From an uncultured Solirubrobacterales bacterium (GTDB taxonomy: Bacteria; Actinomycetota; Thermoleophilia; Solirubrobacterales; Solirubrobacteraceae), in assembly GCA_963701195.1 (NCBI GenBank), contig OY969574.1, positions 1,884,446 through 1,948,445 of the forward strand: a stretch of 64,000 nt of DNA. Reading direction: 5' to 3'. The notes below the pieces were generated by a model that was not told the DNA's origin, searched no databases, and worked only from the letters and a program-made list of their open reading frames with translations. The position numbers and the translations under genes were made by a program. Every line of letters begins with the position of its first letter. Position 1 is the stretch's first letter. Shown here in pieces: positions 20,901 to 50,156 of the stretch.

Positions 20901-22751
20901 CTTCCAGAAGGGCACCGCGCCGGGCACGCCGGGGGCGGGGGTGACGATCACGCGGTCGCGCCCGATCTCCTCGATCCGCCAGGCGGACGCGCCGAGCAGG
21001 AAGACCTGGCCCGGCCGCGCCTCGTAGACCATCTCCTCGTCCAGCTCGCCCACCCGGCGCCCGTCGGGCAGCGTCACCCGGTACAGGCCGCGGTCGGGGA
21101 TCGTGCCGGCGTTGACGATCGCGAGTTGGCGCGCGCCACGGCGCGCGCGGACGGTGCCGGCGAGCCGGTCCCAGACGATCCTTGGACGCAGGTCGCCGAA
21201 CTCCGAAGACGGATAGCGGCCCGCGAGCATGTCGAGCACGTTCTCCAGCTGGCGGCGCGGCAGCTCGGCGTAGTTGTAGGTGCGGGTGACGAGCGCGTAC
21301 AGCTCGTCCACCGAGAGACCGCCGCTGTGCTCGCCGGCCGCCGGCCCATCGCCGTCCACCCCCGCCTGGCCGCCGCGCCCCTCCTCCTCGGCCGCCGCCA
21401 TCGCGACGACCTGCTGCGCGAGCACGTCGAGCGGGTTGCGCGGCACGACCGTCGGCTCGATCGCCCCTTCGCGCATCCCCTTCGCGACGACCGCGCACTC
21501 GAGCAGGTCGCCGCGGAACTTCGGGAAGATGCGGCCCTTGGCGGTCTGCGCGACGCCGTGGCCGGCGCGGCCGATGCGCTGCAGGCCGGCGGCGACGGAC
21601 TTCGGCGACTCGACCTGGAGCACCAGGTCGACGGCGCCCATGTCGATGCCCAGCTCGAGGCTCGAGGTCGCCACGATGCAGGGGATCTCCCCGGCCTTCA
21701 GCAGCTCCTCGACGAGCAGGCGCTCCTCGCGCGCGAGCGAGCCGTGATGGGCGCGGGCGATCTCGCGCGGCGCCGCCACCCCCTCCCGGCCGCCGGAGGC
21801 GGCCCCCTCCCCCTCCGCCTCCTGCTCACGGAGCGCCAGCTCGTTCAGGCGCAGCGCCAGCCGCTCGGCGGAGCGGCGGTTGTTGACGAACACGATCGTC
21901 GAGCGGTGCGCGCGGATCAGCGCCAGCAGCTCGGGGTAGATCGCCGGCCAGATCGAGCCGCGCAGCGACTCCCCGCCGGCCATCGGCTCCAGCGGATCGG
22001 CGTCGGCGCCCGCGCCGCCGACGGGCCCGTCCAGCTCGGTCATCGACTCGACCGGCACGCGCACCTGCAGGTCGAGCGGCTTGCGCAAGCCGGTGTCGAC
22101 GATCTGGCAGTCGCGCCTCGGCCCGACGAGGAAGCGCGCGACCTCCTCCAGCGGGCGCTGCGTCGCGGAGAGCCCGATGCGCTGCAGCTCGCGCCCGGCC
22201 AAGCGCTCCAGGCGCTCGAGGCTCAGCGCGAAGTGCGCGCCGCGCTTGCTCGCGGCGAGCGCGTGGATCTCGTCGACGATCGCCCAGCGCGCGCTGCGCA
22301 GCAGCTCCTTTGCGCGGGATGTGAGGAGCAGGTACAGCGACTCGGGCGTCGTGATCAGGATGTCGGGCGGCGTGCGCAGCATCTGCGCGCGCTCGCGCGG
22401 GGGCGTGTCGCCGGTGCGGATCGCGACCGTCAGGTCGGCGCCGATGCCGCGCAAGGGCGCGCGCAGGTTGCGCTCGATGTCATAGGACAGCGCCTTCAGC
22501 GGCGAGACGTACACCAGCCGCGTGGCGCGCTGCGCCCCCCGCTCGCGCTGCGCGGCGAGCCGGTCGAGCGCCCACAGAAACGCCGCCAGCGTCTTGCCCG
22601 AGCCGGTCGGCGCGGAGATCAGCACGTGCCCGCCCGCGGCGATCGCCGGCCAGGCCTGCTCCTGGGCGGCGGTCGGCGCCGCGAACGCGCCGTCGAACCA
22701 CGCCTGCGTGCGCGCACCGAAAGCCGCGGTCGCCTGGTCAGCCATTCCCAT
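17913..22751 (-). CDS. lhr: Lhr-family DEAD/DEAH-box helicase (about 1610 aa; start ATG 22751 or 22745)
   Basis: APTGSGKT, SPLKAL, TTPESL, VDEIH, SATQ, ATSSLELGIDMG, QRIGRAGH, and the C-terminal winged-helix/HTH_42 region. Confidence 0.93.
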   Translation of the reverse strand: MGMADQATAAFGARTQAWFDGAFAAPTAAQEQAWPAIAAGGHVLISAPTGSGKTLAAFLWALDRLAAQRERGAQRATRLVYVSPLKALSYDIERNLRAPLRGIGADLTVAIRTGDTPPRERAQMLRTPPDILITTPESLYLLLTSRAKELLRSARWAIVDEIHALAASKRGAHFALSLERLERLAGRELQRIGLSATQRPLEEVARFLVGPRRDCQIVDTGLRKPLDLQVRVPVESMTELDGPVGGAGADADPLEPMAGGESLRGSIWPAIYPELLALIRAHRSTIVFVNNRRSAERLALRLNELALREQEAEGEGAASGGREGVAAPREIARAHHGSLAREERLLVEELLKAGEIPCIVATSSLELGIDMGAVDLVLQVESPKSVAAGLQRIGRAGHGVAQTAKGRIFPKFRGDLLECAVVAKGMREGAIEPTVVPRNPLDVLAQQVVAMAAAEEEGRGGQAGVDGDGPAAGEHSGGLSVDELYALVTRTYNYAELPRRQLENVLDMLAGRYPSSEFGDLRPRIVWDRLAGTVRARRGARQLAIVNAGTIPDRGLYRVTLPDGRRVGELDEEMVYEARPGQVFLLGASAWRIEEIGRDRVIVTPAPGVPGAVPFWKGEGVGRPKELGLAIGAFARWAVAQESETLQRDYDLDARAARNLLDYLREQQAATRVLPSDRTIVLERFRDEIGDWRLCVLSPYGGRVHAAWGLALSARLRREHGLQADAIWSDDGIAVHLPDGDRLPGEELVLIDPDELEDLVVAELGNSALYGARFREAAARALLIPRAYPGKRTPLWQQRLKAQSLLEVARRYSDFPIVLEAYRECLRDVLDLQGLRELLAKLHRRELDVVQVETATASPFASSLLFDYVATYMYEGDAPSAERRAAALSLDRDLLRELLGREELRELIDPGALARVEDDLQRRAEHARAATRDELHDALRLLGDLSAAEASERVHAGVDAGALLAALERERRAVRVRIGGRERYVDAADAGLYRDALGAVPPGGLPDAFLAEVPDALVRLLARYAATHGPFATAAPVARYGPGAGAAGAAGTGAVELALRELERAGTLVRGELRPGGEGREWCDVEVLRRLRRASLAALRREIEPAERRAYAAFLPAWHGIDRWGGRTAGEYAAGATIPPRARVRVRDGLGGDGHTAGAGWDMSTPIPATVGLERLREQLVPLQGLALTPRTWEREVLPRRLGAYSTAWLDELCASGEVVWVGAGALGRNDGRVALYFREDVPLLGPPPRRGELSGDSPECPHERVRARLAAGSGFFADLLADLPDPAETLQEALWDLVWAGEATNDAFAPLRAPRLKLAAGSDRPRAASAGRFSARRRAAGAPRHPPGRWSLTAPLFAGTGAEDPAARRRAHAELLLERHGILTRELALAEGVPGGFAALYPELCRLETLGVARRGYFVEGLGGAQFALAGAVERLRALRPAAGGTAATGDTAAGVGTGAGVGTVSGVRAGPAGDRDEAAARTLVLAATDPAQPYGAALPWPRRAAAGATGRAAPSPARAPGALVVLVDAEPVLYLERGGRALRLLTGEDPAQRRVTLALQALAAHARAGLAPSRLALERVDGEPVLGSRWEAALAAVGFRAGPRRLTLSA

Positions 22752-22796
22752 GGCGAGACTAGTCGAAAGTGTCCAGTTTTCGGGTACCCTCGCCTG

Positions 22797-24362
22797 GTGG
22801 TCAGCTCGAAGCTCGATCTCGATCTCAACGTCGTCGACGCGTGCCGCGACGCGGCCGCGCGGATCGCCTCGCAGGTGGCGCAGGAGATCGGCGGGCGCAC
22901 CACCGTCTCGGTCGAGCGCACGGTCGCGCGGCTGCTCGGCGTCGACGGCGCGAACGCGCTCGAGGTGCCGCTGCCGAACGCGCTGATCGACCACGTGCGC
23001 GAGCGCGGCCAGCTCGGCTTCGGGATCGCCTACTGGCTGGGCAACGCGATGCTCCACCGCGAGCGCTCCGCGCAGCAGATCGCCGAGGAAGTCGATGCCG
23101 GCGAGCTGGCGCTGTGCGACGTGCCGCGCGCGAGCGAGGCCGCGATCCGCGAGCGGATCGGCACCGAGTGCGCCGCGCGCCTCGGGCAGATCGGCAAGCG
23201 CATGGAGGAGCGCCGCGCGCTGCGCGCGCGGCTGGGGGAGAGCCCTCCCCCCCTGCGCTACGTGCTGACCGCGACCGGCAACGTGTACGAGGACGTCGTG
23301 CACGGCCTGGCGGTCGCGGAGGCCGGCGGGGACATCGTCGCGGTGATCCGCTCGACCGCGCAGAGCCTGCTCGACTACGTCCCCTACGGCCCGAGCACCG
23401 AGGGCTACGGCGGCACCTTCGCCACGCAGGCGAACTTCGCGATCATGCGCGCCGCGCTCGACGAGTGGTCGCAGGCCAACGGCCGCTACGTGCGCCTGTC
23501 GAGCTTCTGCTCGGGCCTGTGCATGTCGGAGATCGCGACGATGGGCGCGATCGAGGGCCTTGACAACATGGTCAACGACGCGCTCTACGGGATCCTCTAC
23601 CGCGACATCAACATCCTGCGTGGGCTGATCGACCAGCGCGTCTCGCGCACGATCAACGGCTACTTCGGCGTCGTGATCAACACCGGCGAGGACAACTACC
23701 TGCGCACCGCCGACGGCCTGGAAGCGGCGCCGTCGGTGACCGCCTCGCAGTTCATCAACCACCAGCTGGCGCGCGACTCGGGCGTGCCCGACGAGCAGAT
23801 CGCGCTCGGCGACGCGTTCGAGATCGACCCGCCGACGCGCAACGGGCTGCTCTACCAGTGGGCGCAGGCCCAATTGACGCGCGAGCTGTTCCCCGCCTGC
23901 CCGGTGAAGTACATGCCGCCGACGCGCCACATGGACGGCAACCTGTTTCGCACGCACGCGTCGGACTCGCTGTTCAACCTGGTCACGGTCGCGACCGGCC
24001 AGGGCATCCAGACGATCGGCGTGCCGACCGAGGGGATCTTCACGCCGCACATCCACGACCGCGTGCTCGGCCTGCAGAACGCAGGCTACGTGTTCAACGC
24101 CGCGCGCGACCTCGGCGGCGAGATCGAGTTCAAGCGCGGCGGCATCATCCAGACGCGCGCGCAGGAAGTGCTCGGCGGCGCGCAACGGATCCTCGAGCAC
24201 ATCGCGCAGGTGGGGCTGATCGCCGCGGTCGACGAGGGCGTCTTCGGCGACGTCAGCCGCCGCGTCAACGAGGGCCGCGGGATCGAGGGGATCGTCGAAA
24301 CCGAGCTCGAGTACTTCAATCCCGCGACCGAGCTGATGCGGGGGTCGCTGAGCGTTGTCTGA
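22797..24362 (+). CDS. kamD: Lysine 5,6-aminomutase alpha subunit (PLP TIM barrel)
   Basis: SKLDLD...TTVSVERTVARLLGVDG, ATGNVYED, AVIRSTAQSLLDYVPYG, NDALYGILYRDIN, INTGEDNY, KYMPPT; 521 aa from GTG 22797. Confidence 0.93.
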   Translation: MVSSKLDLDLNVVDACRDAAARIASQVAQEIGGRTTVSVERTVARLLGVDGANALEVPLPNALIDHVRERGQLGFGIAYWLGNAMLHRERSAQQIAEEVDAGELALCDVPRASEAAIRERIGTECAARLGQIGKRMEERRALRARLGESPPPLRYVLTATGNVYEDVVHGLAVAEAGGDIVAVIRSTAQSLLDYVPYGPSTEGYGGTFATQANFAIMRAALDEWSQANGRYVRLSSFCSGLCMSEIATMGAIEGLDNMVNDALYGILYRDINILRGLIDQRVSRTINGYFGVVINTGEDNYLRTADGLEAAPSVTASQFINHQLARDSGVPDEQIALGDAFEIDPPTRNGLLYQWAQAQLTRELFPACPVKYMPPTRHMDGNLFRTHASDSLFNLVTVATGQGIQTIGVPTEGIFTPHIHDRVLGLQNAGYVFNAARDLGGEIEFKRGGIIQTRAQEVLGGAQRILEHIAQVGLIAAVDEGVFGDVSRRVNEGRGIEGIVETELEYFNPATELMRGSLSVV

Positions 24363-25209
24363 GGGCGACGGCGCACAGGCACCGGCGCAGAACGGCGAAA
24401 CGGGCGCCGGGACGCCGGCGCGCAAGGTCGACCTCGCGCACGTGAAGCCCTACGCCGACCAGCTCGGCGACGGGATCGTGCAGCTGAGCTTCACGCTGCC
24501 CGTCCCCTACGGCCTGGCGGCACGCCGGGCGGCGCTCGAGCTGGGCGCGAAGATGGGCCTGCAGCAGCCCGAGGTCGTCCACTACGAGGGCTTGACCGAC
24601 GGCTACACGTACTTCGTGATGTACGGCCACTGCACGCACACCGTCGACTACGCGACGCTGCAGGGCGAGGGCTTCGAGATCGAGTACATGAACGAGGAGC
24701 AGATCGAAGACTACGCGCGCGAGCACGTCGGGCGCCCGATCGTCGTCGTCGGCGCGAGCACCGGCACCGACACGCACAGCGTCGGCATCGACGCGATGCT
24801 CAACCTCAAGGGCTTCCACGGCCACAAGGGCCTGGAGGGCTACAGCGCGTTCCAGGCGCACAACCTCGGCAGCCAGGTCACCAACGGCACGCTCGTCGCG
24901 AAGGCGATCGAGCTGGACGCAGATGCGATCCTCGTCTCGCAGACCGTCACCCAGCAGAACCTGCACATCCACAACCTGACCGAACTGGTCGAGATCCTCG
25001 AGGCCGAGGGCCGCCGGCGGCGCACGATCCTCGCCTGCGGCGGCCCGCGCGTCTCCAACGAGCTGGCCAAGGAGCTGGGCTACGACGCGGGCTTCTCGAA
25101 AGGCACGTATCCCCACCACCTGGCGACGTTCCTCGTGCGCGAGCTGGCCGCGCGGCTGGCCGAGTCCGGCGAGGACGCCGAGGCGGCCCGCAGCGCCCCG
25201 GCCGGGTAG
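24355..25209 (+). CDS. kamE: Lysine 5,6-aminomutase beta subunit (adenosylcobalamin-binding)
   Basis: VKPYAD..GDGIVQLSFTLP; base-off/His-on motif DTHSVG; PLP Lys in NLKG; SQTVTQ; CGGPR; overlaps the kamD stop. Confidence 0.93.
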   Translation: MSEGDGAQAPAQNGETGAGTPARKVDLAHVKPYADQLGDGIVQLSFTLPVPYGLAARRAALELGAKMGLQQPEVVHYEGLTDGYTYFVMYGHCTHTVDYATLQGEGFEIEYMNEEQIEDYAREHVGRPIVVVGASTGTDTHSVGIDAMLNLKGFHGHKGLEGYSAFQAHNLGSQVTNGTLVAKAIELDADAILVSQTVTQQNLHIHNLTELVEILEAEGRRRRTILACGGPRVSNELAKELGYDAGFSKGTYPHHLATFLVRELAARLAESGEDAEAARSAPAG

Positions 25210-25222
25210 GCTCCAGCCCGTC

Positions 25223-26746
25223 ATGAGCGAGCAGCGCGACGCGCCGCAGGAGGAGCAGCCAGGGGACGACGCCGCGGGCGGCGCCGACGAGCGCCACGCC
25301 AAGCTCCAGCGCCTGCGCGCACAGGGCGTGGAGCCCTACCCGTACATCGACACGCGCGTGCCGCGCACGTGGATCGCCGACATCCAGGGCGCCCACGACC
25401 CCTCGCAGCTGGCGGCCGGCGAGCATGAAGGCTTGGTCTACCGGATCGCCGGGCGCATGATCGCCCGCCGCGGGCACGCGAAGACGACGTTCTTCGACGT
25501 GCGCGACCAGTCCGGCACGATGCAGGTCGTCGCGCGCGCCGAGGCGCTGGGCGAGGATGCCTACGCGGCGATGACCGACCTCGACGTCGGCAACATCGTC
25601 GCAGTCGAGGGCTGCGTCTACATCACCAAGCGCGGCGAACTGACGCTCGCGGTGAAGCGGTGGACGATGCTCGCCAAGGCGCTGCGCCCGCCGCCGGACC
25701 GCTACCACGGCATGGAGGACCCCGGCGCGCGCTACCGCCACCGCGAACTGGACCTGCTCGCCAACGAGCGCACGCGAGAGATGTTCTTCAAGCGCACGAA
25801 GACGATCGAGGCGATCCACGACTTCCTGCGCTCGCGCGGCTTCACCCAGGTCGAGACGCCGATGCTGCAAACGCTCGCGGGCGGCGCCGCCTCGCGGCCG
25901 TTCGTCACCCACCACAACGCGCTGGACGTCGACGTCTACCTGCGCATCTCGGTCGAGCTGTACCTCAACCGCTGCATCGTCGGGGGCCTCGAGAACATCT
26001 ACGACCTGGGGCGCGCGTTTCGCAACGAGGGCATCTCCCACCGCCACAGCCCCGAGTTCACGATCCTCGAGTGGATGATGTCCTACGCCGACTACTGGGA
26101 CGTCGCGAAGATGACCGAAGACATGGCCGAGTCGGTGGCGCTGCAAACGCTCGGTACGACCAAGGTCGAGCAGTTCGACGGCAGCACGGTCGACTTCGCC
26201 ACGCCGTGGCAGCGGATCACGCTGCAGGACGCGATCAAAAACGCGGTCGGCATCGACTTCCTGGCGGCGAGCGAGCAGGAGCTGCTGGACGTGCTCGACG
26301 GCGAAGCGGACCCCGACGCGAACTGGGCGAAGCTCGTCGACGCGATCTACGTCAAGCACGTCGAACCGACGCTGATGGCGCCCACGCACGTGTTCGACTT
26401 CCCGGTGGACCTGTTTCCGATCTGCAAGCGTCACTCGCGGGAGCCGCGCCTCTCAGAGCACTTCGACTCGGTGATCCGCGGAATGGAGATCCTTTCCGGC
26501 GACACCGAGCTGAACGATCCGCTGGACCAGCACCAACGCTTTGTCACCCAGCGCCAACAGGCCGCGGGCGGGGATGACGACCAGCCGCAGCCGAACGACG
26601 AGGCGTACGTGCGCGCGCTGGAATACGGGATGGCGCCGACGGCGGGGGGCGGGCTCGGGGTTGACCGGCTTTTGATGGTGCTCACCGGGGTCGAGGCGAT
26701 GCGCGAGGTCGTGCCGTTCCCCACGCTGCGTGCCGCGCGGGGGTGA
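25223..26746 (+). CDS. Class II lysyl-tRNA synthetase paralog (OB-fold plus catalytic domain) with an altered amino-acid pocket
   Basis: GGAASRPFVTHHNAL, FRNEG, ELNDP and GLGVDR motifs present; canonical ELY/EFY and NGF/NAF pocket motifs replaced by EWM and SGD. Confidence 0.85.
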   Translation: MSEQRDAPQEEQPGDDAAGGADERHAKLQRLRAQGVEPYPYIDTRVPRTWIADIQGAHDPSQLAAGEHEGLVYRIAGRMIARRGHAKTTFFDVRDQSGTMQVVARAEALGEDAYAAMTDLDVGNIVAVEGCVYITKRGELTLAVKRWTMLAKALRPPPDRYHGMEDPGARYRHRELDLLANERTREMFFKRTKTIEAIHDFLRSRGFTQVETPMLQTLAGGAASRPFVTHHNALDVDVYLRISVELYLNRCIVGGLENIYDLGRAFRNEGISHRHSPEFTILEWMMSYADYWDVAKMTEDMAESVALQTLGTTKVEQFDGSTVDFATPWQRITLQDAIKNAVGIDFLAASEQELLDVLDGEADPDANWAKLVDAIYVKHVEPTLMAPTHVFDFPVDLFPICKRHSREPRLSEHFDSVIRGMEILSGDTELNDPLDQHQRFVTQRQQAAGGDDDQPQPNDEAYVRALEYGMAPTAGGGLGVDRLLMVLTGVEAMREVVPFPTLRAARG

Positions 26747-39992: not shown

Positions 39993-40283
39993 TCATCGGT
40001 CGCCGCCAGCCCGCACATCGATCACCGCTACGCCCGGCACAGCCGCGCGCGCGAGCTGCTGCAGCTGCGCCGAGTCGAAGCTGTGCGCCCGCGGCGCGAC
40101 CGGGTTGACAGTCACCACGCACAGCCGCAACGGCGCGAGCACGCGGATCTCAAGGCCCCGCTCGCGGTACCACCCGGGCCCGCGCTTATCGAGGAATACC
40201 CGCGTCGGATCGGCGACGACCAGCTCCAGCTCTCCCACGATCGCGACGCGCAGCGCCGGCTCGATCGCTTCCGATAGCAGCAC
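39993..40283 (-). pseudogene. kamB: Internally deleted copy of kamB (first ~15 codons fused in frame to the last ~80)
   Basis: VLLSEAIEPALRVAIVG joined to ELVVADPTRVFLDKRGPGWYRERGLEIR..., matching both ends of 49128..50156. Confidence 0.85.
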
Positions 40284-49127: not shown

Positions 49128-50156
49128 CTACCGGCCGCCGGAACGCACGTCCAGCACCCGAACCCCGGGCACAGCCGCGCGCACGAGCTGCTGCAGCCGC
49201 GCCGAGTCAAAGCTGTGCGCCCGCGGCGCAACCGGGTTGACGGTCACCGCGCACAGTCGCAGCGACGCCAGCGCGCGGATCTCAAGGCCCCGCTCGCGAT
49301 ACCACCCGGGCCCGCGCTTGTCGAGGAAGACCCGCGTCGAATCGGCGACGACCAGCTCCAGCCCCCTCCCACGCGTCGCCGCAAGCAGCTCGCTCAAGAA
49401 CGGCTCGCACAGCGCACCGCCCAGCACGAGGCGCCGCGCGCGCGGATGGGCGCGCAGCAACACGACCAGCTCGGCAGCGGTGCTCGTCAACGCAAAGCGC
49501 GCCGGCAGCACGACCGGCGCCATACCGTCGTCGCCAAGCAGCACCGTGTCGCCGCCCGCCAACGCGCGCACGCTGCCGTCCTGCACGACCGGCAGTCGAA
49601 TCAGCTCCACCGCGTCACGCGTCAACGCAGCGACCCGCTCGGGCTCCTCGGCCAACACGGCGCCGGTCGCGAGCACGATGCCGTCGCAGACCGCGGGCGA
49701 GGAGGCGGCGCGGCGGTCGATCGCACCGTCGACGAGCACCAGCTCCGCGCCGTGCACGAGCATCGCGTCGGCGACCGCGCGGACCTCTTCGGCGACGCCC
49801 GGCCCCGCGACCTCAACGGCGCCCTCGCGCTCCAGGCGCGCGACCAGCACGCGCCCCAGCGGCGTACGGATACCCGTCTGCTCGACCAGCTCGAGCGGCA
49901 GTGCGCTCGCGCGCAGCAGCGCGTCGGTGCTCGCAACGAGGCTACCCGCGGCAAGCGTCACGGAAGGCTTCTCGATCCGCGCATCGATCGCGTCGCGCGC
50001 CTCGCCGTCGCGGCCGACCGAGGTCACGCCAACCGTGCGCCCCTGCGCGCGCAGCTCGCGCAGCAGCGCGTTCAGCGTTTCCGTCTTGCCTGTGTTCTTC
50101 GCCAACCCCACGATCGCGACGCGCAGCGCCGGCTCGATCAGTTCGGACAGCAGCAC
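49128..50156 (-). CDS. kamB: Lysine 5,6-aminomutase reactivase subunit KamB-like P-loop protein
   Basis: IVGLAKNTGKT, TSVGRDGE, EKP, EVAGP and LVDGAIDRRAASSPAVCDGIVLATGAV, as in clostridial KamB-family proteins (recognised from memory). Confidence 0.72.
   Translation of the reverse strand: MLLSELIEPALRVAIVGLAKNTGKTETLNALLRELRAQGRTVGVTSVGRDGEARDAIDARIEKPSVTLAAGSLVASTDALLRASALPLELVEQTGIRTPLGRVLVARLEREGAVEVAGPGVAEEVRAVADAMLVHGAELVLVDGAIDRRAASSPAVCDGIVLATGAVLAEEPERVAALTRDAVELIRLPVVQDGSVRALAGGDTVLLGDDGMAPVVLPARFALTSTAAELVVLLRAHPRARRLVLGGALCEPFLSELLAATRGRGLELVVADSTRVFLDKRGPGWYRERGLEIRALASLRLCAVTVNPVAPRAHSFDSARLQQLVRAAVPGVRVLDVRSGGR

What the first reader, a model, noticed from the sequence alone, without database searches (positions are those of the whole stretch)
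22797..24362. The aminomutase alpha subunit also differs at pocket-lining motifs
Compared with clostridial KamD as I recall it, RLCNYCSGLCMPE is RLSSFCSGLCMSE, LGHAFE is LGDAFE, PPTKFMTGN is PPTRHMDGN, and HLLGMLTEA.HTP is QTIGVPTEG.FTP. The PLP-binding motifs (IRSTAQS, ALYGILYRD, GEDN) and the KamE His/Lys motifs are kept. Clustered change around an intact cofactor site suggests altered substrate specificity. That would match the altered ligase next door.
Basis: partly seen in the sequence, partly recalled or inferred. Interest (0 to 1): 0.6.

Follow-up and report, generated by a model that had tools for sequence, protein, structure and literature searches.

The report
Retooled lysine aminomutase beside LysRS paralog
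This B12/PLP lysine 5,6-aminomutase has a rewritten active-site rim and sits next to a rebuilt second lysyl-tRNA synthetase instead of lysine-fermentation genes, so it probably makes a lysine isomer for a purpose not yet described.

Summary
All four motif differences hold against the C. sticklandii structure sequence, and the PLP, cobalamin-His and PLP-Lys residues are intact.

Comparative data sharpen it:
- About 80 ordinary KamD proteins keep NY, LGHAFE, a Thr in the xxTG[ND] segment (rarely Ser/Ile) and LLGM..TE.(H/V)TP. They come from Bacillota, Bacteroidota, Fusobacteriota, Asgard archaea and other Actinomycetota.
- A 27-member actinobacterial clade carries SF, QTIGVPTEG.FTP and a Tyr/Phe swap.
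- Within it, the 24 copies next to a LysRS paralog form their own clade. They are invariant for D339, R377 and D380; unlinked relatives have N339/N380.

The changes sit at the C-terminal ends of barrel strands, next to the known PLP contacts. No distances could be measured.

The genome has no KamA-family gene, Kal or KamC. The linked LysRS2 has Y280M, N424S and F426D.

Clade members without LysRS2 sit next to an ArgRS-like paralog or an NRPS module. Sister genomes without KamD pair a LysRS2 with a diaminobutyrate-type aminotransferase.

Best reading: the mutase makes a lysine isomer that the neighbouring ligase activates. Altered specificity is inferred, not shown.

This scan noted the same pairing earlier in another genome (e1-5279056).

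The parts
22797..24362 (+). kamD, lysine 5,6-aminomutase alpha subunit (TIM barrel), divergent actinobacterial clade
   Evidence: It matches PF09043 and NF052384 above cut-off. The AF2 model has pLDDT 92.4 and superposes on 1XRS_A, 8T0V and 9Q1A at TM 0.96-0.97 and rmsd 1.3-1.4 A.
23502..23507 (+). S236-F237 at the end of strand beta3 (canonical N-Y); F237 replaces the PLP contact Tyr236
   Evidence: The role of Tyr236 is described in PMC3958899.
23598..23600 (+). Y268 (canonical F267), the reciprocal partner of the Y236F change
23811..23813 (+). D339 at the end of strand beta6 (canonical His, Asn in unlinked clade members); specific to LysRS-linked copies
   Evidence: Found in 119 of 120 close homologues. 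Coordinates checked.
23925..23936 (+). R377-H-M-D380 in the beta7-alpha7 loop; D380 (canonical Thr, Asn in unlinked clade members) is specific to LysRS-linked copies
24009..24047 (+). QTIGVPTEGIFTP, strand beta8 and its loop (canonical [QH]LLGMxTEAIHTP); holds T406, V409, G413 and F415
24355..25209 (+). kamE, beta subunit (B12-binding Rossmann domain); overlaps the kamD stop by 8 nt
   Evidence: It scores 356.5 bits on NF052385 (cut-off 280). His133 and Lys144 are kept. It has only 7 mostly conservative group-specific positions, none specific to LysRS-linked copies.
25223..26746 (+). lysS2, full-length class II LysRS paralog with a rebuilt side-chain pocket (Y280M, N424S, F426D in E. coli LysU numbering); starts 13 nt after kamE
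   Evidence: A canonical LysRS lies elsewhere in the genome.
49146..50120 (-). kamB, reactivase subunit, displaced about 22 kb from kamDE-lysS2 by a low-GC island
   Evidence: It scores 290.5 bits on NF052386 (cut-off 210).
40014..40241 (-). C-terminal fragment of a second kamB copy
   Evidence: It scores 53.6 bits on NF052386, covering profile positions 251-326.

Best explanation
kamD/kamE encode a functional adenosylcobalamin- and PLP-dependent 5,6-aminomutase that left the lysine-fermentation pathway. It was recruited into a 3-4 gene module: lysS2, kamD, kamE and usually kamB.

Shown:
- The catalytic and cofactor residues, the fold and the KamE partner are intact.
- A fixed set of replacements sits at the C-terminal ends of barrel strands beta3, beta4, beta6, beta7 and beta8.
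- The LysRS-linked copies are one clade, with two new carboxylates (D339, D380) plus R377.
- The partner LysRS2 keeps its catalytic motifs and a conserved anticodon-binding domain. It has lost Tyr280 and Phe426, positions known to control discrimination of lysine analogues.

Inferred:
- The enzyme still moves the terminal amino group of a lysine-type substrate from C6 to C5.
- It recognises the far (alpha-carbon) end differently. The likely substrate is L-lysine, which the clostridial enzyme barely turns over, rather than D-lysine or beta-lysine. The genome has no KamA to make beta-lysine.
- The product, 2,5-diaminohexanoate, is then activated by LysRS2. Its new Asp426 and Met280 would suit an amine one carbon closer to the alpha-carbon and a terminal methyl group.

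The acceptor and final use of the activated amino acid are unknown.
For: - Family membership and intact cofactor sites.
- Motif table over 81 loci: canonical states are near-invariant in 54 loci from four phyla, and the alternative states are fixed in the clade.
- The same canonical states occur in 24 other actinobacterial KamDs.
- There are 26 group-specific positions. T315, D339, R377, D380 and L383 are specific to LysRS-linked copies.
- Tree: the linked copies form a clade (SH-aLRT 99) inside an actinobacterial clade (100) on a 0.78 stem.
- The replacements lie at strand ends in the AF2 model.
- Linkage: 24 of 24 named loci, and the same pattern in the genus sample, in two gene orders at two chromosomal sites.
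- G000 has no KamA-family gene, Kal or KamC, and Kce scores only below cut-off. Other actinobacterial KamDs have a KamA-like gene 3-4 kb away.
- The LysRS2 pocket changes are invariant in 24 of 24 copies, and the numbering was checked on LysU. Y280F and F426W are known to alter analogue discrimination (PMC12546413).
- The three clade members without LysRS2 sit next to another activating enzyme. Two have a divergent ArgRS-like paralog and one a C-A-T NRPS module.
- KamD-less sister genomes pair LysRS2b with a diaminobutyrate-type aminotransferase.
- The clostridial enzyme has kcat/Km of 0.4 for L-lysine against 630 M-1 s-1 for D-lysine (PMC3958899).
Against: - No biochemical data exist for any member of this clade.
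- No distances to PLP or substrate could be measured.
- The two residues proposed in the literature to anchor the substrate (D298, K370) are unchanged.
- Most distinctive replacements are shared with clade members that have no LysRS, so they do not by themselves 'match the ligase'.
- Enrichment of changed positions on the catalytic face is only borderline once conservation is controlled for (p = 0.05).
- No dedicated tRNA lies near any module, and the genome has only the two ordinary tRNA-Lys genes.
- No obvious consumer of a mis-charged tRNA was found: no MprF-type or FemAB-type gene. A carboxyl-activated delta-amino acid would also tend to cyclise (established chemistry of ornithine, from my own knowledge).
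Confidence: 0.5

Rival explanations
1. The mutase makes a lysine analogue (2,5-diaminohexanoate) as a catabolic intermediate or secreted antimetabolite. LysRS2 is an analogue-insensitive, still lysine-specific synthetase that is co-expressed to protect translation. This would resemble the resistant aaRS copies found in antibiotic gene clusters.
For: - LysRS2 is full length with a conserved anticodon-binding domain, and no dedicated tRNA is present.
- Positions 280 and 426 are the ones whose mutation gives thialysine resistance in E. coli LysRS.
- The sister module pairs LysRS2b with an enzyme of the diaminobutyrate-forming family, and diaminobutyrate is another lysine analogue.
- Every genome checked keeps a canonical LysRS as well.
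Against: - F426D places a carboxylate in the middle of the pocket. That should attract rather than exclude shorter diamino acids (inference).
- A second synthetase does not stop the first from mischarging.
- No exporter or downstream catabolic gene is shared between the two chromosomal contexts. The only shared genes are lysS2, kamD, kamE and kamB.
Confidence: 0.22
2. This is ordinary lineage drift. The enzyme has the same D-lysine/beta-lysine activity as clostridial KamDE and serves lysine catabolism. The LysRS adjacency would be regulatory or incidental.
For: - The protein scores above NCBI's equivalog cut-off.
- D298, K370 and all PLP contacts except Tyr236 are kept.
- Some listed changes are common elsewhere.
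Against: - The replaced positions are near-invariant in about 80 KamDs spanning four bacterial phyla and Asgard archaea at only 43-55% overall identity.
- The clade sits on a 0.78 stem branch.
- The genome has no KamA, Kal or KamC.
- Linkage to LysRS2 survives two gene orders and two chromosomal locations.
Confidence: 0.15
3. The order of steps is reversed. LysRS2 first activates or tethers lysine as lysyl-AMP or lysyl-tRNA, and KamDE isomerises that species. The new acidic residues would replace recognition of a free carboxylate.
For: - Two extra carboxylates and an Arg appear only in the LysRS-linked copies.
- The genes are tightly packed and probably translationally coupled: an 8-nt overlap and a 13-nt gap.
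Against: - K370, the proposed carboxylate partner, is retained.
- The closed state must enclose the radical intermediate, which is hard to reconcile with a tRNA-sized substrate (inference).
- The LysRS2 side-chain pocket would not need rebuilding if it bound lysine itself.
Confidence: 0.06

Closest known systems
Clostridial/Thermoanaerobacter lysine 5,6-aminomutase KamDE (PDB 1XRS, 8T0V, 9Q1A)
   Same: - 49-53% identity, with an ungapped alignment and TM 0.96-0.97.
- All PLP-phosphate, pyridine-N, stacking-Tyr and phenol-O contacts are kept, as are D298 and K370.
- The KamE partner keeps His133 and Lys144, and a KamB reactivase is present.
   Different: - Changed residues: N235S, Y236F, F267Y, H338D, T379D, L405T, M408V, A412G, H414F.
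- No kamA, kdd/kce/kal context or KamC.
- The gene order is kamD-kamE-(kamB) with a LysRS paralog, instead of kamB-kamC-kamD-kamE.
- The host is an aerobic-soil Solirubrobacterales lineage.
D-ornithine 4,5-aminomutase OraSE (PDB 3KOW-3KP1)
   Same: - Same B12/PLP chemistry and barrel (TM 0.66).
- The OAM substrate contacts Tyr160, Arg297 and His225 align with positions 237, 371 and 299 here.
- OAM has Glu where this protein has D380 (alignment).
   Different: - Only about 26% identity.
- OAM is a fused E subunit with a small S subunit.
- The Glu81 alpha-amine anchor lies in an insertion that is absent here.
EpmB/EpmA (YjeK/PoxA) EF-P beta-lysylation system
   Same: It pairs a lysine aminomutase with a LysRS-derived ligase whose pocket is adapted to the mutase product.
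   Different: - EpmB is a radical-SAM 2,3-aminomutase, not a B12 5,6-aminomutase.
- EpmA lacks the anticodon-binding domain and acylates EF-P. LysRS2 is full length with a conserved N-domain.
Pyrrolysine system (PylB lysine mutase with the dedicated synthetase PylS)
   Same: A lysine-rearranging mutase and a dedicated class II aaRS are encoded together (established knowledge).
   Different: - PylB is a radical-SAM enzyme that makes 3-methylornithine.
- PylS is not LysRS-derived, and the system has its own tRNA. No extra tRNA is present here.

Membership tests
Lysine 5,6-aminomutase alpha subunit (KamD; PF09043 / NF052384) | Profile score above the curated cut-off over the full length | tested here: met
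   704.8 bits on PF09043 (cut-off 25) and 756.6 bits on NF052384 (cut-off 600), covering profile positions 1-511.
Lysine 5,6-aminomutase alpha subunit (KamD; PF09043 / NF052384) | TIM-barrel fold superposable on solved KamD | tested here: met
   The AF2 model has pLDDT 92.4. Against 1XRS_A it gives TM 0.97 and rmsd 1.3 A over 515 columns.
Lysine 5,6-aminomutase alpha subunit (KamD; PF09043 / NF052384) | PLP contacts R184, Q188, S189, S238, Y263, R268 and N299 (1XRS numbering, from PMC3958899) | tested here: met
   All are present at window positions 185, 189, 190, 239, 264, 269 and 300. G187 is Ala, but that contact is through the main chain.
Lysine 5,6-aminomutase alpha subunit (KamD; PF09043 / NF052384) | Tyr236 hydrophobic contact to PLP (aligned with OAM Tyr160, which H-bonds the substrate carboxylate) | tested here: not met
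   It is Phe237 here and in all 27 clade members. It is Tyr in all 54 canonical and 24 other actinobacterial KamDs.
Lysine 5,6-aminomutase alpha subunit (KamD; PF09043 / NF052384) | Proposed substrate anchors Asp298 and Lys370 | tested here: met
   D299 and K371 are present.
Lysine 5,6-aminomutase alpha subunit (KamD; PF09043 / NF052384) | Adjacent KamE with the cobalamin-ligating His133 and PLP-binding Lys144 | tested here: met
   KamE scores 356.5 bits on NF052385, and both residues align with 1XRS_B.
Lysine 5,6-aminomutase alpha subunit (KamD; PF09043 / NF052384) | Catalyses the 5,6-amino shift on D-lysine or L-beta-lysine | not testable with these tools
   This needs an enzyme assay.
Lysine-to-butyrate fermentation operon (kamA-kamBC-kamDE-kdd-kce-kal) | KamA, Kce, Kal and KamC are present in the genome or cluster | tested here: not met
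   TIGR00238, NF052388 and NF052383 give no hit in G000. NF052387 scores 154 bits against a cut-off of 382. The genome is one 4.19-Mb contig at 90% estimated completeness.
EpmA/EpmB-type EF-P lysylation system | Radical-SAM 2,3-aminomutase plus a truncated LysRS paralog without an anticodon-binding domain | tested here: not met
   The mutase is B12-dependent KamDE. LysRS2 aligns to lysS models over positions 5-487 and its N-domain is conserved. EF-P as a target was not tested.

The most novel reading that the evidence does not exclude
One uncultured Solirubrobacteraceae genus may run a previously undescribed aminoacylation system. A LysRS-derived synthetase with a rebuilt pocket would load a non-proteinogenic diamino acid made next door. 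That acid would be 2,5-diaminohexanoate from the retooled KamDE in about three quarters of the genomes. In the rest it would be diaminobutyrate, or a similar acid, from a class-III aminotransferase. The acceptor would be tRNA-Lys or another molecule, so these cells would deliberately use a lysine isomer in a tRNA-dependent process.
Probability: 0.3. Interest if true: 0.85.

Novelty: new variant of a known kind. Interest (0 to 1): 0.66.

Why it matters
B12/PLP aminomutases are known almost only from anaerobic amino-acid fermentation. Their substrate determinants are still undefined, and the 5,6-LAM literature itself calls for mutagenesis to find them.

This clade offers a natural experiment. 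The catalytic core is fixed, a small defined set of rim residues is swapped, and there are three different downstream activating enzymes.
- It gives a short list of candidate specificity residues to test: 236, 267, 338, 379 and 414.
- It points to a source of enzymes that may accept L-lysine for making 2,5-diamino acids.
- With LysRS2, it suggests a possible new route by which a non-canonical amino acid enters tRNA-dependent chemistry.

Tried and rejected
- A search of the 50%-identity representative library was uninformative. Canonical and clade KamDs collapse into one cluster.
- No tRNA lies in the window or in 27 related loci, apart from one unrelated tRNA-Ala. No Rfam element, such as a B12 or lysine riboswitch, lies in 15-30 kb.
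- Whole-genome aragorn finds only tRNA-Lys CTT and TTT and no suppressor tRNA. A dedicated-tRNA code-expansion model therefore has no support.
- MprF-type (PF09924) and FemAB (PF02388) consumers of aminoacyl-tRNA were not found in G000.
KamD and LysRS2 pattern scans of IMG/VR and a tblastn of INPHARED phages found nothing. The only plasmid-collection hits are two canonical copies on records of 2.1 and 2.6 Mb.
- The primary structure papers for 1XRS and OAM are not held, and no paper on 8T0V's active site was found. Residue roles therefore come from reviews.
- No paper in the library contains both '6-aminomutase' and 'lysyl-tRNA synthetase'.
- Coordinates of models or PDB entries are not available to scripts, so no distances could be measured.

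Full report
**What is there.**
The window is high-GC actinobacterial DNA. Three tightly packed genes lie on the plus strand:
- kamD at 22797-24362
- kamE at 24355-25209, overlapping kamD by 8 nt
- a full-length class II lysyl-tRNA synthetase gene at 25223-26746, after a 13-nt gap

Upstream, on the other strand, is an Lhr-type helicase. KamD, KamE and the synthetase all pass NCBI's equivalog cut-offs. The genome is one 4.19-Mb contig. It has one kamD and a second LysRS elsewhere that is 44-48% identical to the neighbour. I call the neighbour LysRS2.

**Checking the observation.**
The alignment to C. sticklandii KamD (1XRS_A) is ungapped, so window numbering equals 1XRS numbering plus 1. KamE keeps His133 and Lys144. 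An AlphaFold model (pLDDT 92.4) superposes on 1XRS, and on the open and closed T. tengcongensis structures, at TM 0.96-0.97 and rmsd 1.3-1.4 A.

**Are the residues unusual?**
A scan of species-representative genomes returned 80 named loci.
- In 54 loci from Bacillota, Bacteroidota, Fusobacteriota and Promethearchaeota, the motifs are near-invariant. They read x-N-Y-[CS]-S-G, LGHAFE, PPTK[FYH]-x-T-G and [QHC]LLGMxTE[AG]xHTP.
- An even sample of 400 Actinomycetota genomes gave 30 more KamD carriers. Five of these are unpublished genomes (G061, G078, G108, G296, G444). They count in that tally only, and I left their loci out of the motif table.
- All 24 that were tabulated keep N-Y, LGHAFE (LGHAFQ in three) and a T or S at position 379. 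Four of the five checked have a KamA-like gene 3-4 kb from kamD, and the fifth has a KamA elsewhere in its genome.

The window's states are confined to 27 sequences. All 27 have S236-F237, Y268 and QTIGVPTEG[IV]FTP; Y268 is the reciprocal of the Y236F change. The 24 copies that sit next to a LysRS2 add D339, R377 and D380, all invariant. The other three have N339 and N380. These three are a Micromonospora, an unnamed actinomycete and a Solirubrobacterales MAG. Among the 120 closest metagenomic cluster representatives, 119 have D339 and 120 have R377 and D380.

K-to-R and F-to-H also occur in ordinary KamDs.

**Phylogeny.**
With four distant homologues as outgroup, the LysRS-linked KamDs form a clade (SH-aLRT 99). 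It lies inside an actinobacterial clade (100) that sits on a long stem of 0.78 changes per site. This was a quick tree with LG+G4, and the tool flagged L070 as a long branch.

**Where the changes lie.**
The model's barrel strands are 153-158, 180-183, 233-237, 257-259, 293-295, 335-340, 370-373 and 404-406. The group-specific positions include:
- 236 and 237, at the end of beta3, two residues before S239, which bonds the pyridine N
- 259 and 268, flanking the stacking Y264 and R269
- 303, after the GEDN motif
- 339, at the end of beta6
- 377 and 380, just after K371 on beta7
- 406, 409, 413 and 415, on beta8 and its loop

Twelve of the 26 fall in the 80 strand-end positions, against 4 expected (p = 1e-4). 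Measured only against conserved positions, the enrichment is borderline (p = 0.05).

A review lists Tyr236 as a PLP contact, and OAM Tyr160 (its aligned residue) as an H-bond donor to the substrate carboxylate (PMC3958899). Asp298 and Lys370 are proposed as the electrostatic anchors of the substrate (PMC9105233), and both are kept here.

Beta6 lies between beta5 (D299) and beta7 (K371) in the barrel, so D339 and D380 are plausibly close to those anchors. One distant homologue has Arg at 339 and Asp at 380, which hints that the two positions touch. This is inference, because I could not measure distances. KamE shows only seven mild group-specific changes.

**Context.**
In the genus sample, and in all 24 named loci, LysRS2 is adjacent to kamD. 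In 19 loci the order is lysS2-kamD-kamE-kamB. In 5 it is kamD-kamE-lysS2, and the genus sample also shows kamD-kamE-kamB-lysS2. The two orders sit at different chromosomal sites. They share no other neighbours.

In this window kamB lies at 49146-50120 on the minus strand, with a fragment at 40014-40241. A low-GC island separates both from kamDE-lysS2.

G000 has no KamA-family gene, Kal or KamC, and only a sub-threshold Kce relative. The fermentation pathway is therefore absent, and so is the route to beta-lysine.

**The ligase.**
All 24 linked LysRS2 proteins keep motif 2, motif 3, E240, E278 and E428. All have Y280M, N424S, A425G and F426D. The housekeeping LysRS, and the single LysRS of 11 other Thermoleophilia genomes, are canonical. 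In E. coli LysRS, Y280F and F426W change discrimination against thialysine (PMC12546413). The LysRS2 N-terminal domain is as conserved as that of the housekeeping enzyme. Five of five genomes checked have both enzymes.

**Two observations that bear on function.**
First, the three clade members without LysRS2 also sit beside an amino-acid-activating enzyme. Two have a divergent class I ArgRS-like paralog. These score about 100 bits against a 262-bit cut-off, keep the HxGH motif, and are 29% identical to each other. The Micromonospora locus has a P450 and a C-A-T NRPS module.

Second, five genomes of the same genus lack KamD. They carry a sister LysRS2b with Y280L and the same S-G-D motif. It is followed by a class-III aminotransferase of the diaminobutyrate-transaminase family, which only just reaches the TIGR00709 cut-off.

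So the rebuilt ligase always travels with an enzyme that acts on, or makes, a basic diamino acid.

**Reading.**
The simplest account has two steps. KamDE here converts lysine, probably the L-isomer, into 2,5-diaminohexanoate; the clostridial enzyme handles L-lysine about 1500-fold worse than D-lysine. LysRS2 then activates that product.

The main rival is that LysRS2 remains lysine-specific and shields translation from the analogue. The full-length synthetase, the lack of a dedicated tRNA and the lack of a visible consumer favour this rival. The new mid-pocket carboxylate argues against it.

Plain drift with unchanged function is unlikely, given how invariant these positions are elsewhere.

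**Relation to earlier notes.**
An earlier follow-up in this scan (e1-5279056), on another genome, reached the same general reading of the pairing. Its mention of phage-like carriers was not reproduced with my queries. I found no paper describing a KamDE-LysRS pairing.

Noticed in passing
window 27000-52000; kamB at 49146-50120(-), fragment at 40014-40241(-): A low-GC stretch (54-65% against about 70-75%), encoding secreted-looking proteins, lies between lysS2 and kamB. kamB is present as one full copy and one C-terminal fragment. This fits a duplication or insertion that split the module.
   Followed up: partly
L133 7898-10819(-), L134 9086-12199(+), L135 7838-10797(-): Genomes of the same genus without KamD carry a sister LysRS paralog (Y280L, same S-G-D pocket motif). 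It lies directly upstream of a class-III aminotransferase of the diaminobutyrate-transaminase family. A divergent HTH regulator is also conserved nearby. This module and the KamDE module were mutually exclusive in the 11 genomes checked.
   Followed up: partly
L097 12408-14090(-); L070 5734-8604(+): A divergent class I ArgRS-like paralog sits next to kamD-kamE in two actinobacterial loci that lack LysRS2. It keeps the HxGH motif and scores about 100 bits on argS against a 262-bit cut-off.
   Followed up: partly
L069 12453-17604: In Micromonospora sp. NPDC005710, the clade-type kamD-kamE-kamB is flanked by a P450 and an NRPS C-A-T module. This suggests the mutase supplies a building block for a non-ribosomal peptide.
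   Followed up: no
L001 1327-3087 (G000:C1:3367245-3369005): The housekeeping LysRS of this genome has an N-terminal extension of about 60 aa. It also has a Gly/Ser-rich insertion of about 50 aa between motifs 2 and 3. Its pocket residues are canonical.
   Followed up: no
G000:C1:2243219-2243296: ARAGORN calls a tRNA-like gene with an undetermined identity and a two-base anticodon (cg).
   Followed up: no
L039 and L040 (G030:C1:104500-157900): One genome carries two complete modules about 33 kb apart, one in each gene order. In the KamD tree, the window and L047 (LysRS downstream) group with 'LysRS upstream' copies. In the LysRS2 tree, all 'downstream' copies form one clade. This suggests the module parts have recombined.
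   Followed up: partly
L095, L099, L100, L109, L114: Promethearchaeota (Asgard) MAGs carry canonical kamB-kamD-kamE. These copies nest among Bacillota and Fusobacteriota sequences in the tree, which suggests transfer from bacteria.
   Followed up: no
window 22745-22800: The likely start codons of the divergently transcribed lhr (about 22751, minus strand) and kamD (22797) are only about 45 bp apart. That leaves very little room for two promoters, so one of the starts may be mis-set.
   Followed up: no
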